Shown: positions 28,937-58,516 of the stretch, in pieces
Position numbering within the stretch: the stretch's first letter is position 1
Layout of the letters: the number at the start of each line of letters is the position of its first letter
DNA from: the human T2T-CHM13v2.0 reference genome, Homo sapiens
Assembly: GCF_009914755.1 (NCBI RefSeq)
Contig: NC_060942.1
Direction: 5' to 3' (one strand)
Length of the DNA stretch: 64,000 nucleotides
Program-made: the position numbers and the translations under genes
The notes under the pieces: model-generated
Told to the model about the DNA's origin: nothing
The model's input: only the letters and a program-made list of their open reading frames with translations
Database searches by the model: none

Positions 28937-29182
<246 letters not shown>

Positions 29183-35022: not shown

Positions 35023-36641
35023 TTAATATTAAGACATTATTTCCAAACTTTGCTTTTAAAGGATAACATTTTTGGAAGTTTGTGAAATTATATGATATAG
35101 AGCATGTTATTTTATTCTACAAATAGTACTTCAATTTAAAAAACTAAATTGTAATTTTTATGTCAATAATTATAACGTTTAGAATAGATTAAATAATAAT
35201 ACAAGTACAATTTATACTTTAACTTAAAAATTTACAAAACAAAACTTGGGACCAAACCCTGAATATGGAACCATTTTTATTATAATTTATAAACTTTTTA
35301 TTAATATATTTATTCAGCAACTATTTACTGAGTGTACACCATGTGCCTTCAACTCTTCCTGATACTGGTGATACAACATCAAAATGAATAAATATCTTTT
35401 TCCTTATTGGGGTTACATTCTGTATTTAATTTTAAAATCAGAATAAGAATCTCAAAAAATTAAATAACATTTTATAAATTGTGGAATATTTTTGAAAGAA
35501 TACTTGCTGAGTTAATTCATGAAAAACAAGCAGATGAGCATTTTGTCAGAAACTACACTGGCTGCAACCTTCATCAGGCACTAAGATCAGAAGTTCAAAA
35601 TCAAAATAAAAAAAAAAGATTTCATTTTCTGTTATTCCCAGAAAGGTCTAGAACTATATAAGTAAGTACTCATTTGCTCATTCAATCATTAATTCAGTAA
35701 ATATTAATTGAATGTCAGTTTGGAAGTTAAAAGATTAATCGGTGGCACATCATGTCTTCATGATAATTACTATTTAGAAGATAAATTCAGAGTATGGCAT
35801 AAATAAATTCATGGTCAGATGTAAGTACTCTATAGAAAAACATAGATTTTTTTCCAAATTCTAGTAAAAGAAGGGGAAAGATGTCAAAAATGGCCCTTAG
35901 ATTCTTGAAAATGCCTGAGAACTTTTCTATTAAACTCATCTATTTGTGAGGAACAAGGATAGGGACTACTCACTTTATAGATTAATATGTGTTAACAATT
36001 TATTGAATGCTACTTCTATTCCTATTATGGGGCAAAAAGCTTTATTTCATTTATTTTTCATCCCAGACATCTAGAGTAGTTCCTGACACATAAAAGCCAT
36101 TCAATAAGTGGTTGTTTTTAAATTACTCACATGATAGAATATTCACTTTTTTGGTAGAGTAAATATTTATTATAAGTATTAAAAGAGAGCTGTATATGTT
36201 CTTCCTTCTATAAAGGAGTAGTTAAATAAAAATGTAGGCAAGAAAAACAAAATACCGTACCTAGAAACTCTACAAAGAAAAATATACTGCTGCTTTGCTA
36301 ATAGAATTGACTCATCAAGTGCTATTTGCAACCTGCTTGTATTTATCACATAAGGTTTAATTTTACACAGCTAAAAGAACTGAGAAGTATTTCTTCTTTT
36401 CACTTTTTAAGAGCTAATAAAGTTTGCATTACAGGGATTAAGAAACCTGGCTGACCATTAGAATGACAAATTTTATCATAAAATTATGCAGATTCTGAAA
36501 TGCGCAATATCTTAAGCCTTTAAAACTACTGTAAGAAATCTCCTGTGTGTTTTTATTGGTTTCTCTGGGAAAGTTATCACAAGAGGGCTGTAATTAAATG
36601 GTGGTGTTTGGTATCACTGCCCGCGTTCTCTTGCGTAACAG

Positions 36642-36662
36642 TTTTAGGGGCTCCCTACATAG
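36642..36662 (+). other. Candidate alternative microexon (21 nt from CAG acceptor, or 15 nt from TAG acceptor starting 36648)
   Basis: ttctcttgcgtaacag|TTTTAG|GGGCTCCCTACATAG|gtaagt. Both lengths are multiples of 3 and stop-free in the DCC frame (VLGAPYI or GAPYI). Inclusion is inferred. Confidence 0.55.
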
Positions 36663-36877
36663 GTAAGTTAACTGGCTAGCGAAATGAGAAAAAAAAAATA
36701 GACAAATACAGTTATTTTTCATCTCTCCAAAAATTTTTGAAGTACTACCTGGGTTAACCTACCTAATTATCATTATAAACTATATAAACAAAACCACACT
36801 CTCTTTTTACTAGACAGGTGGTATTTTTCTTTCAAGATTTTGGCAGTAACTGTGACAATTTGTTTGATTCCTTTTAG

Positions 36878-36927
36878 TGCCAAGTGCCCCGCCTCAGAAC
36901 GTCTCCCTGGAAGTGGTCAATTCAAGA
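36878..36927 (+). CDS. DCC: DCC coding exon (50 nt; exon 12), start of FN-III repeat 3
   Basis: ttccttttag|TG acceptor, AGA|gtaagt donor. G+TG CCA AGT GCC CCG CCT CAG AAC GTC TCC CTG GAA GTG GTC AAT TCA AGA = VPSAPPQNVSLEVVNSR. The ORF track shows a different frame here. Confidence 0.96.
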
Positions 36928-38589
36928 GTAAGTTGGCTAAATGTTCACTACTCCATTACCTATCAAGATTACCTATCATGTATAACCTTCACTCACCCAA
37001 CTGCTGTCTTGAGTACAGGATAGTGGCTTCCATGTGCAGAAATGTTCTGGAACAACACAGCAAGTGACATTGATCCCACATCCTCTTCCATCAGACTTAA
37101 GTAAATTAAATGAAATATTTGTCTACTTCTAAACAAATATTTTGATTTACAAATATTAAACAAACATTGATTTTGTGAATGTTTTAGTGGCCAAAGGCTA
37201 TTCCATAAGGAAACAAAGACATCTGCTTCGTCTATATTCACCAGTCTATCATATAGCAATGATGATGTGCTAGATGAGGAAATTGAAATAATTAGGAGAA
37301 AGAAAGACTGTTTCCTAACACATTACTTAGAATTGAATATTTCGTCATCATCCCCATTCTTCCTTTATAAATGTAGTCATTGAAGGCCATTCTTGAACTT
37401 CAATACAGTTATATTTATGTAGCGATGTTACCTAGTTGTTAGAACTTTCCTGGCCTGGAATGTTGCTATGACTTCCAAAGGAGCTCAACTTAGGCTAGTA
37501 TTGCTGAAGTAGCCTAATGCCAGAGGTCAGTTTTCTAGAAACATGTCATTATTTCAAGTGACTCAGGGTTGGAAATAAGCCAAGGCCACCTAGTAGAGTA
37601 TAACAAATGAGGATTCACCTGGTTTGACCCTGTCACCACCTGGCCACTATGCTTGGACCTCCAGTTAGGTACTTCTCATGTGAGGAAATTGGCCTAAATG
37701 ATTTCTAAGCTCTGGGAGACAGCAGAGAAATGATACAGGTCTTAGAAAAAGTCATACTCTGGGTTTTAAATCTAGCTTTCTCTTTTCATAACTATTTGGT
37801 CTTAGCAAAGTTTTCAACCTTAGCAAACCTCTTTCTATGTTTAAGTATCCTAAGAATTACTATCTTCCTTATTGACTTATCATGAGAAAGTAATAGTAAA
37901 ATGTATGCGATGAATCTGACTTGATAGTGATTCCTTCATTCCATGTGCAAATGCCTTGTCATATTTTGTAAAAAATCTATGAGGAAGCCATATCTTGTGA
38001 TGTTAATTGGATTTGTCTCAGTCAAATGAATTTATCTTTTGAAGCAAGTGAATGCATTATTCTCTTATACTTTTAGGCAATATGTTGGATAAGAACTATT
38101 AAAGCAAACATAAAATTAGAAGAAAATAACTAAACTTAGTGGAAAAAATGAGCTAAAGGAAAATAATCAAAAATTAACATAACCCTACAAATGACATTTT
38201 TATCTGCAACAACACTGCTTTAGAGATGTGCCACTTAAATTAAGAGATTGCCAAGTCAAAGTCAAGTAGATTTTTACAATTATTGTATGTTGTTAATGAA
38301 TGAAATTTGGAAAACATATTGTAATGTCTCTTGTTTAACAATTCATCATTGTTAGAATCCTCACTCACTTTATGTTTTTCCTCCAGGACAGAATATAGAA
38401 ATTGATATACAAGCTATTTTGTGTTTGTGTGTTCATACCCTTTAAGAGTGTACTCCAGGAAAAGATGAATGTTTTCACTTGAAACGTGTATAGGGCATTA
38501 CTGAATGACCCTGGATGCTAACTGTATTTGAATATGGATGTACTTTACTGAAGACGGAATTCCTGGATTGCAAAATTGACTATATATAT

Positions 38590-48236: not shown

Positions 48237-48570
<334 letters not shown>

Positions 48571-58426: not shown

Positions 58427-58516
58427 TATTCTACTGAGAGTACAGATCTTTATATATATGATCATTATATGTATGATGAGATCATTATATGTATGATCTG
58501 GACACCCAGTAGAATC
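58427..58516 (+). ncRNA. MIR4528: microRNA hairpin mir-4528 (mature about 58482-58503, UCAUUAUAUGUAUGAUCUGGAC)
   Basis: Stem attctactg (58428-58436)/cagtagaat (58507-58515) and cagatc/gatctg. Sequence matches my recollection of hsa-mir-4528, annotated in a DCC intron. Confidence 0.85.

What the first reader, a model, noticed from the sequence alone, without database searches (positions are those of the whole stretch)
36619..36668. Candidate neural microexon (15/21 nt) lengthening the DCC FN2-FN3 linker
Seen: 215 nt upstream of exon 12 is cgcgttctctTGCgtaaCAG|TTTTAG|GGGCTCCCTACATAG|GTAAGT. It has a full-consensus donor and two acceptors 6 nt apart, giving 21 nt (36642-36662) or 15 nt (36648-36662). 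Both keep the phase-1 frame with no stop: TLSD-VLGAPYI-VPSAPP or TLSD-GAPYI-VPSAPP. The insert lands exactly between two FN-III domains. A UC tract then UGC (36632-36634) lies 8-16 nt before the acceptors, and CpGs are locally retained. Established: UC-rich plus UGC near the 3' site, strong donor and length 3n typify SRRM3/SRRM4 (nSR100) neural microexons. Linker mini-exons tune ligand binding in LAR-type RPTPs, and the DCC FN4-FN5 linker is alternatively spliced. Inference: a second, three-state linker switch in the DCC ectodomain. It is absent from the canonical protein as I recall it; I cannot say whether splicing catalogues list it.
Basis: partly seen in the sequence, partly recalled or inferred. 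Interest (0 to 1): 0.88.

Follow-up and report, generated by a model that had tools for sequence, protein, structure and literature searches.

The report
Unproven microexon look-alike in DCC intron
A 15 or 21 base stretch in an intron of the axon-guidance receptor gene DCC looks very much like a small brain-specific exon, but no transcript, protein record or paper I could reach shows that it is used.

Summary
The sequence is as described. Two AG acceptors lie 6 nt apart, followed by 21 or 15 nt in an open frame and a GTAAGT donor. The site is 215 nt upstream of DCC exon 12 and lies at the FN2/FN3 domain boundary.

It is unusual by local chance. In 264 kb of the DCC locus, both strands, it is the only single-copy, 3n, microexon-sized acceptor/donor pair carrying a UC..UGC element at moderate thresholds. 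Its donor is the strongest in intron 11. It also abuts one of only two unique non-exonic CpG clusters in those 264 kb.

Every reachable test of use was negative:
- 0 of 138 vertebrate DCC protein records carry an insert at this junction, and 0 of 120 NEO1 records do.
- The human NEO1 intron has no counterpart.
- Full-length nanopore DCC amplicons from adult human brain report no exon here.
- No paper found mentions it.

Cross-species conservation and RNA-seq junctions could not be examined.

A normally skipped pseudo-microexon is about 0.5 likely, and a genuine SRRM3/4-type neural microexon about 0.3.

The parts
29009..29147 (+). DCC exon 11 (end of FN-III domain 2). It ends in phase 1 and its donor is GTAAGT.
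   Evidence: Hub annotation. (sequence, frame). (tblastn: mouse DCC residues 574-620). PWM 3'ss 8.61, 5'ss 10.26.
36612..36618 (+). Possible branch-point region (TATCACT, A at 36616). It lies 25 nt before the first AG, with no AG in between.
   Evidence: Read by eye. It matches yUnAy in 4 of 5 positions. This is inference and was not tested.
36622..36635 (+). Cluster of three CpGs (36622, 36624, 36634) inside the pyrimidine tract.
   Evidence: There are 18 clusters of >=3 CpG in 20 nt in 264 kb. Fifteen lie in multi-copy repeats. Three are unique: exon 11, this one, and one other intronic site.
36626..36634 (+). UC-rich run followed by UGC (TTCTCTTGC). This resembles the SRRM4/SRSF11-type intronic enhancer and also a PTBP-type UCUU site.
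   Evidence: By chance a YCTC..TGC element lies within 28 nt upstream of 1.8-1.9% of AGs. The assignment of binding factors is recalled knowledge and was not tested.
36640..36641 (+). Upstream acceptor AG (CAG), giving the 21-nt form.
   Evidence: PWM 3'ss 6.18.
36646..36647 (+). Downstream acceptor AG (TAG), 6 nt later, giving the 15-nt form.
   Evidence: PWM 3'ss 4.36.
36642..36662 (+). Candidate microexon, 21 nt (15-nt form: 36648-36662). It would add 7 or 5 residues between FN2 and FN3 in an open frame.
   Evidence: No evidence of use was found.
36663..36668 (+). Consensus donor GTAAGT (TAG|GTAAGT). It is the strongest 5'ss-like site in the 7.7-kb intron 11.
   Evidence: 10.42, against 10.26 for exon 11's own donor; the next best intronic site scores 9.95.
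36878..36927 (+). DCC exon 12 (50 nt, start of FN-III domain 3). Its splice sites are the weakest among the four exons of the window.
   Evidence: Hub annotation. (3'ss 5.7, 5'ss 6.41). (Pfam fn3 best stretch starts at residue 625 of mouse DCC; the exon 11/12 junction is at 620/621).

Best explanation
This is a splice-competent-looking pseudo-microexon. By my reading it is an intronic constellation of two acceptors, 15 or 21 in-frame bases and a perfect U1-binding donor, and it is skipped in essentially all DCC mRNA, or used only at noise level.

Shown: the constellation exists, is single-copy, and is rarer than local chance predicts. No reachable annotation, protein record, long-read isoform table or paper contains it.

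Inferred: exons this short cannot be defined across the exon by U2AF and U1 alone. Without a dedicated activator the strong donor is bound but not paired, and exon 11 is joined directly to exon 12. The site stays a latent in-frame cryptic exon that a nearby variant or a change in splicing factors could switch on.
For: - 0 of 138 vertebrate DCC cluster representatives carry an insert at this junction. Of these, 135 have the canonical junction and 3 show intron read-through or exon-12 loss. The set covers mammals, birds, reptiles and amphibians. It does resolve other small isoform differences, such as the 18-20-residue FN4-FN5 segment and a 28-29-residue Ig4-FN1 insert.
- 0 of 120 NEO1 representatives have an insert at the homologous junction. 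The homologous human NEO1 intron (3672 nt, same phase) has no similar sequence and no credible candidate.
- PMC12455821, supplementary file 2, DCC sheet (read), reports full-length nanopore amplicons from adult human brain. It lists 13 non-reference isoforms, and the only novel exon is a 55-nt exon 1a.
- DCC is absent from file 7 of Head et al. 2021 (PMC7935315). That file's rows are exon-inclusion values for neural-enriched exons and include NEO1, PTPRD, PTK2 and NRCAM (I read passages only).
- No paper in seven full-text searches describes it. The three reviews whose passages I read name only exon 17 or unspecified alternative splicing for DCC.
- By rough extrapolation of the local rates, on the order of 100 such chance sites are expected in human sense-strand introns.
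Against: - The joint features are improbable locally. The donor is the strongest in intron 11. It is the only unique 3n candidate with a UC..UGC element in 528 kb of strand length at 5'ss >= 7 and 3'ss >= 3.
- Three CpGs sit within 14 nt exactly in its acceptor region, in a locus with CpG observed/expected 0.19. Only one other unique non-exonic cluster of that kind exists in 264 kb. This hints at constraint.
- The negatives are soft. Most mammalian DCC records are merged into two clusters (722 and 16 members), so a mammal-specific isoform could be hidden.
- Nanopore aligners often miss exons this short (recalled knowledge), and that study sampled adult tissue only.
- The Head et al. table needs coverage in non-neural tissue, where DCC is barely expressed (inference).
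- The hub table lists the exons of 1 of 5 RefSeq transcripts only.
Confidence: 0.5

Rival explanations
1. This is a genuine SRRM3/SRRM4-type neural microexon of DCC. In neurons SRRM4, with SRSF11/RNPS1, would bind the UCUC-UGC element just upstream of the acceptors and recruit early spliceosome components. The strong donor would compensate for the tiny exon. The 21-nt form (mainly) or the 15-nt form would then be included, lengthening the otherwise zero-length FN2-FN3 linker by 7 or 5 residues and changing ectodomain geometry. It may already sit unnoticed in splicing catalogues.
For: - The length is a multiple of 3 and the frame is open.
- The donor scores 10.42 and is the best in the intron.
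- A UC run and then UGC lie 8-16 nt before the acceptors. Such a motif is found before only 1.8-1.9% of AGs.
- The UCUU-type tract could give PTBP repression outside neurons (recalled).
- The region is unique, non-repeat sequence.
- A CpG cluster sits at the acceptor.
- The insertion point is exactly between domains.
- The DCC/NEO1 family does use alternative segments in other linkers: FN4-FN5 in both, Ig4-FN1 in both, and an 11-residue segment after FN6 in NEO1. A 33-nt neural NEO1 exon is listed with inclusion 11.6 against 96.2.
Against: All the negatives listed under the best explanation apply. In addition, no GCATG (RBFOX-type) motif lies in the 200 nt upstream or the 215 nt downstream, and there is no precedent at this junction in either paralogue. 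DCC is intensively studied, and a conserved exon with appreciable inclusion would probably have been annotated by now (inference).
Confidence: 0.3
2. This is a constrained intronic element that is not itself an exon. One example would be a U1-binding decoy or enhancer site 215 nt upstream that helps, or tunes, recognition of the small and weak exon 12. Another would be a protein-binding DNA element kept unmethylated.
For: - Exon 12 is only 50 nt and has the weakest sites in the window (3'ss 5.7, 5'ss 6.41).
- The candidate donor is much stronger and close by.
- The CpG cluster suggests constraint or hypomethylation.
Against: Nothing tested points to this specifically. There is no Rfam match and no unusual RNA fold (z 0.20). 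RefSeq lists no functional element here (hub table). This reading does not explain the open frame and the 3n length, which would then be coincidences.
Confidence: 0.1
3. This is a repeat-derived exonisation site (Alu or MIR type), or a recursive splice site used to remove the intron in steps.
For: Most other microexon-like hits in the locus lie in sequence I read as Alu, or as MIR (naming recalled, not tested). An A10 run follows at 36689-36698.
Against: - The 221-nt region is single copy in the whole assembly.
- A 160-nt piece matches only itself in 264 kb.
- A sensitive blastn of 36480-36800 gives the self hit plus 6 weak hits, five of them over the stretch that holds the A run.
- A recursive site needs the acceptor directly abutting GTAAGT. 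Here 15-21 nt intervene, and the intron is only 7.7 kb.
Confidence: 0.03

Closest known systems
DCC exon 17 alternative 3' splice site (DCC-long / DCC-short, NOVA1/2-regulated)
   Same: It is in the same gene. It is also an in-frame change in a linker between two FN-III domains (FN4-FN5). It is visible here as a missing 18-20-residue segment at residues 819-836/838 in 20 of 55 near-full-length DCC records. It is described in the passages read.
   Different: It is a 60-nt alternative acceptor of a constitutive exon, not a cassette microexon. It is experimentally established, whereas the candidate has no transcript support.
NEO1 33-nt neural exon HsaEX0042591
   Same: It is in the paralogous receptor and is a short in-frame neural cassette in the ectodomain. 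It is listed with inclusion 11.6 against 96.2 in PMC7935315 supplementary file 7 (passage). An 11-residue segment after FN6 is missing in 56 of 108 NEO1 records. Matching these two by length is my inference.
   Different: It lies at a different position (after FN6, not FN2-FN3) and is 33 nt long. It is annotated in many species. The human NEO1 intron homologous to DCC intron 11 holds nothing comparable.
ROBO1/ROBO2 microexon 6b (9 and 12 nt, NOVA-regulated)
   Same: It is a tiny in-frame cassette in the ectodomain of an Ig/FN-III axon-guidance receptor that acts in the same commissural neurons (PMC6687390, passages read).
   Different: It is conserved between paralogues and functionally tested. 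The candidate is absent from the NEO1 paralogue and is untested.
LAR-type RPTP mini-exons meA/meB (PTPRD, PTPRS, PTPRF)
   Same: These are 3n microexons that alter ligand choice by changing a short inter-domain or loop segment (recalled knowledge). PTPRD and PTPRF microexons of 12-27 nt appear in the table seen.
   Different: They lie in or between Ig domains that directly bind ligands. No ligand is known to me for the DCC FN2-FN3 junction (recalled; solved complexes cover Ig1-4 and FN4-6 only).
C. elegans unc-40/DCC exons 8.5 and 14.5
   Same: They are previously unannotated in-frame cassette exons of the DCC orthologue that insert between known domains. They were found only with neuron-type-specific RNA-seq (PMC12084653, passages read).
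   Different: They are in a nematode gene with no sequence relation shown, and they were validated by RT-PCR. Deleting exon 14.5 gave no guidance defect in that paper.

Membership tests
SRRM3/SRRM4-dependent neural microexon | Length 3-27 nt (at most 51), a multiple of 3, reading frame preserved | tested here: met
   15 and 21 nt, phase 1 kept, no stop.
SRRM3/SRRM4-dependent neural microexon | Strong 5' splice site | tested here: met
   TAG|GTAAGT scores 10.42 on a crude recalled PWM. It is the highest in intron 11 and as high as the real exons.
SRRM3/SRRM4-dependent neural microexon | UGC-containing element, with a UC-rich run, close upstream of the 3' splice site | tested here: met
   TTCTCTTGC at 36626-34, 6-15 nt before the first AG. 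The chance frequency is 1.8-1.9% of AGs. That this defines the family is recalled knowledge.
SRRM3/SRRM4-dependent neural microexon | High conservation of the exon and flanking intron across vertebrates | not testable with these tools
   No other vertebrate genome is held. The only proxy is a unique CpG cluster at the acceptor. The human paralogue NEO1 has no counterpart.
SRRM3/SRRM4-dependent neural microexon | Inclusion in neural transcripts (junction reads) | tested here: inconclusive
   No RNA-seq access. The adult-brain long-read DCC isoform table lists no exon here. DCC is absent from the neural-enriched exon table. Both sources can miss it.
SRRM3/SRRM4-dependent neural microexon | Dependence on SRRM3/SRRM4 | not testable with these tools
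   This needs a knock-down or over-expression experiment.
Annotated DCC coding exon / protein isoform | Present in deposited or predicted DCC proteins | tested here: not met
   0 of 138 DCC cluster representatives carry an insert at the junction. Caveat: most mammalian records are merged into two clusters.
Repeat-derived exonisation (Alu, MIR) | Sequence belongs to a multi-copy element | tested here: not met
   Single copy in the assembly. Self hit only in 264 kb.
Recursive splice site | Acceptor AG directly followed by a GTAAGT-type donor, in a very long intron | tested here: not met
   15-21 nt separate the AG from the GT, and the intron is 7.7 kb.
Tandem (NAGNAG-like) alternative acceptors | Two in-frame AGs a few nt apart that are both used | tested here: inconclusive
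   The two AGs are 6 nt apart and both are in frame. Use of either could not be tested. The upstream one scores higher.

The most novel reading that the evidence does not exclude
DCC carries a so far undescribed SRRM3/4-type neural microexon with two acceptors. It would insert 7 (or 5) residues into the otherwise linker-less FN2-FN3 junction. That would be a second, independently regulated hinge in the netrin receptor's ectodomain, beside the NOVA-controlled FN4-FN5 linker. It may be restricted to a developmental window or to rare neuron types, which would explain its absence from annotation.
Probability: 0.28. Interest if true: 0.6.

Novelty: not a real feature. Interest (0 to 1): 0.35.

Why it matters
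DCC is the main attractive netrin-1 receptor. Its loss causes mirror movements and agenesis of the corpus callosum, and its one known ectodomain splice choice (FN4-FN5) changes guidance.

A second regulated linker would add a new control point for receptor geometry, and it would be easy to test.

If instead the site is a silent pseudo-exon, it matters only as a latent in-frame cryptic exon that a deep-intronic variant could activate. I chose the label 'not a real feature' because it is the single most likely outcome (about 0.5). It has not been shown. One junction-read query would settle the question.

Tried and rejected
1. Paralogue test. The homologous NEO1 exon was found and 20 kb downstream was fetched. 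The 3672-nt NEO1 intron shows no similarity to the DCC candidate and no candidate with a pyrimidine tract.
2. Protein records. Three database searches found no insert at this junction.
3. Papers. Seven full-text searches, including the 15-nt exon string itself, returned nothing on this exon.
4. Supplements.
   - MicroExonator (7 files): 'Dcc' is absent, but 'Robo1' occurs only in a file that quotes reviewers' comments, not in a table, so this negative is uninformative.
   - Li et al. 2015 (5 files searched, 1 not searched): no DCC.
   - Head et al. 2021: DCC appears only in gene-expression-type rows; an earlier search covered 12 of the 18 files.
   - Irimia et al. 2014 is not held.
   - bioRxiv supplements are closed and could bear on the claim.
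5. Rfam gave no hit in 36000-37300. The RNA fold of 36580-36700 is ordinary (z 0.20).
6. Repeat origin and recursive splicing were rejected.
7. Longer exon forms were rejected. No usable acceptor lies within 200 nt apart from the two AGs. The only other 3n option (171 nt) has a stop and a 3'ss score of 0.71.
10. No structure or complex modelling was done, because the insert-bearing protein would be a joined sequence.

Full report
**What is there**

- A pyrimidine-rich stretch with three CpGs and the run TTCTCTTGC (36626-36634).
- AG at 36640-41, six bases, then a second AG at 36646-47.
- Fifteen more bases ending in TAG, then GTAAGT at 36663-68.

One search confirms that DCC exon 11 (29009-29147) ends after the first base of a codon and that exon 12 (36878-36927) supplies the other two. 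One search confirms that both candidate exons, 21 nt (36642-62) and 15 nt (36648-62), keep the frame with no stop. They would add seven or five residues.

The distance from the donor to exon 12 is 215 nt.

**Where the insert would fall in the protein**

tblastn of mouse DCC (P0036) against the locus places the exon 11/12 junction at residues 620/621. Pfam's fn3 model for the third FN-III domain starts at residue 625. The solved single-domain structures 2ed8 and 2ed9 cover residues 527-621 and 601-718. The insert would therefore lie exactly between FN2 and FN3, which normally abut with no linker. No solved structure spans this junction. The complexes in the Protein Data Bank involve Ig1-4 and FN4-6.

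**Is it more than chance?**

I scored splice sites with a simple weight matrix whose frequencies I recalled from the literature, so the numbers are rough.
- The candidate donor scores 10.42. The acceptors score 6.18 (21-nt form) and 4.36 (15-nt form).
- The four real exons of the window score 5.7-8.6 (acceptors) and 6.4-10.7 (donors).
- The donor is the highest-scoring 5' site in all of intron 11, just above exon 11's own donor. Within 200 nt upstream, only the two AGs are usable acceptors.

For a null I added 200 kb of DCC locus upstream of the window and scanned 264 kb on both strands for pairs 3-30 nt long at or above the candidate's scores. This found the candidate, two donors of real exons (exon 8 and exon 10, identified), and five others. 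Three of the five lie in sequence I read as Alu and one in sequence I read as MIR (naming recalled, not tested). Only two of the five are multiples of three.

A UC-run-plus-UGC element within 28 nt upstream precedes 308 of 17091 AGs on one strand and 331 of 17507 on the other, about 1.9%. When that element is required and the thresholds are loosened to 5'ss >= 7 and 3'ss >= 3, the candidate is the only + strand hit. The five minus-strand hits, at three loci, read as Alu by recall (not tested). Two unique hits (9 nt and 6 nt) appear only at the laxest setting.

The region is single copy in the assembly and matches nothing else in the 264 kb apart from weak matches over the A-rich stretch.

**The CpG cluster**

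The window has a CpG observed/expected ratio of 0.19. Clusters of at least three CpGs in 20 nt occur 18 times in the 264 kb. Fifteen are in multi-copy repeats. The three unique ones are real exon 11, the candidate's acceptor region, and one other intronic site.

Two unique non-exonic clusters in 264 kb is about what mutation equilibrium predicts, by my rough Poisson estimate. That one of them sits within 20 nt of the best pseudo-exon in the region is a coincidence of roughly 1 in 2000 before allowing for post-hoc choice of features. I read this as a moderate hint of constraint, not as proof.

**Tests of use**

None of the tools holds another vertebrate genome or any RNA-seq, so the two decisive tests could not be run. 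The indirect tests all came out negative.

- DCC protein records. A protein search with the exon 11 peptide returned 185 hits, of which the best 120 were listed. All are DCC records from mammals, birds, reptiles and one caecilian. After the FN2 end, 117 continue with the canonical junction, 3 show intron read-through or loss of exon 12, and none has an insert. A second search centred on the junction of a caecilian DCC added 18 new records (frogs, axolotl, geese, ratites), all canonical. The total is 0 of 138.
- Resolution of that set. It does resolve other small differences: an 18-20-residue FN4-FN5 segment missing in 20 of 55 near-full-length records, and a 28-29-residue insert at Ig4-FN1 in five records. 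Most mammalian records, however, are merged into two clusters of 722 and 16 members. A mammal-specific isoform could be hidden there.
- NEO1. In the paralogue, 119 of 120 records have the canonical junction and one is a read-through. The homologous human NEO1 intron, in the same phase, has no similar sequence and no credible candidate.
- Long reads. PMC12455821 sequenced full-length DCC amplicons from adult human brain regions with nanopore. Its supplementary file 2, DCC sheet (which I read), lists 13 non-reference isoforms. The only novel exon is a 55-nt exon 1a, and nothing lies between exons 11 and 12. Nanopore alignment can miss exons this short (recalled knowledge), and no developing tissue was sampled.
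- Neural exon table. In Head et al. 2021 (PMC7935315), supplementary file 7 lists neural-enriched short exons with VastDB identifiers, among them NEO1 (33 nt), PTPRD, PTK2 and NRCAM. DCC appears only in expression-type rows of other files (passages only). This table probably needs non-neural coverage that DCC lacks (inference).
- Other supplements. The MicroExonator supplements held do not carry gene-named tables: 'Robo1' occurs only in a file that quotes reviewers' comments. The absence of Dcc there says nothing. Li et al. 2015 supplements (5 files searched, 1 not searched) have no DCC. Irimia et al. 2014 is not held.
- Literature. Seven full-text searches found no description. Passages from three reviews name only exon 17, or unspecified splicing, for DCC.

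**Other readings**

Rfam finds nothing in 36000-37300, and the local RNA fold is no more stable than shuffles (z 0.20). A recursive splice site is excluded because 15-21 nt separate the AG from the GT. A repeat origin is excluded by the copy-number tests. A constrained non-exonic element remains possible but has no specific support; one example would be a U1 site that assists the weak 50-nt exon 12 (3'ss 5.7, 5'ss 6.41).

**Weighing**

Extrapolating the local rates gives on the order of a hundred chance sites of this quality in human sense-strand introns. That compares with perhaps a few dozen real neural microexons of similar quality, nearly all already catalogued (recalled orders of magnitude). 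So the prior for an unannotated one is low. The CpG coincidence and the domain-boundary position raise it, and the annotation and long-read negatives lower it again.

My estimates are:
- about 0.5 that this is a normally skipped pseudo-microexon;
- about 0.3 that it is a real SRRM3/4-type neural microexon, catalogued somewhere or not;
- about 0.1 that it is another kind of constrained element.

If the exon is used, the upstream CAG acceptor should dominate. It is the first AG after the likeliest branch point at 36616 and scores higher.

**Comparison with known cases**

It would work like the FN4-FN5 linker choice of DCC exon 17, the 33-nt neural exon of NEO1, microexon 6b of ROBO1/2, or the meA/meB mini-exons of LAR-type phosphatases. 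It also recalls the recently found in-frame inter-domain exons 8.5 and 14.5 of C. elegans unc-40 (PMC12084653).

It meets the sequence-level criteria of an SRRM4-type microexon: length, frame, donor and UGC element. The criteria that define membership (conservation, neural inclusion, SRRM4 dependence) could not be tested.

**Verdict**

This is a well-observed, statistically unusual candidate with no evidence of use. It is worth one cheap junction-read and conservation look-up. It should not be counted as a discovery.

Noticed in passing
window 36878-36927: DCC exon 12 is only 50 nt. On the crude PWM it has the weakest acceptor (5.7) and donor (6.41) of the four exons in the window. One deposited rodent protein (P0017) lacks it.
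   Followed up: partly
window 48406-48416: Microexon-like pair (11 nt, donor score 12.97) in sequence I read as Alu (by recall; copy number not tested). It is out of frame and resembles the classic antisense-Alu exonisation site (naming recalled).
   Followed up: no
L028:964-987 and L029:5832-5849 (200-kb block upstream of the window): Two other 3n microexon-like pairs at or above the candidate's scores. The first is 24 nt, in what looks like a MIR core (recalled). The second is 18 nt, in sequence whose copy number I did not check, with a TGC upstream. Neither was checked for frame or for use.
   Followed up: no
L016:9137 (about 151 kb upstream of the window): The only other unique, non-exonic cluster of three CpGs within 20 nt in the 264 kb examined. 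The short sequence has a small inverted repeat.
   Followed up: no
window 36689-36698: A run of ten A lies 21 nt after the candidate donor. It accounts for most of the weak similarity hits of the region.
   Followed up: partly
proteins P0065, P0117, P0249, P0254, P0258 (DCC) and P0230 residues 432-451 (NEO1): Both DCC (birds, frogs, axolotl) and NEO1 records carry an optional 20-29-residue Pro/Ser/Thr-rich segment at the Ig4-FN1 junction. It is absent from the mouse DCC reference used here.
   Followed up: partly
window 58427-58516: The annotated MIR4528 lies in the same DCC intron region. I did not examine it.
   Followed up: no
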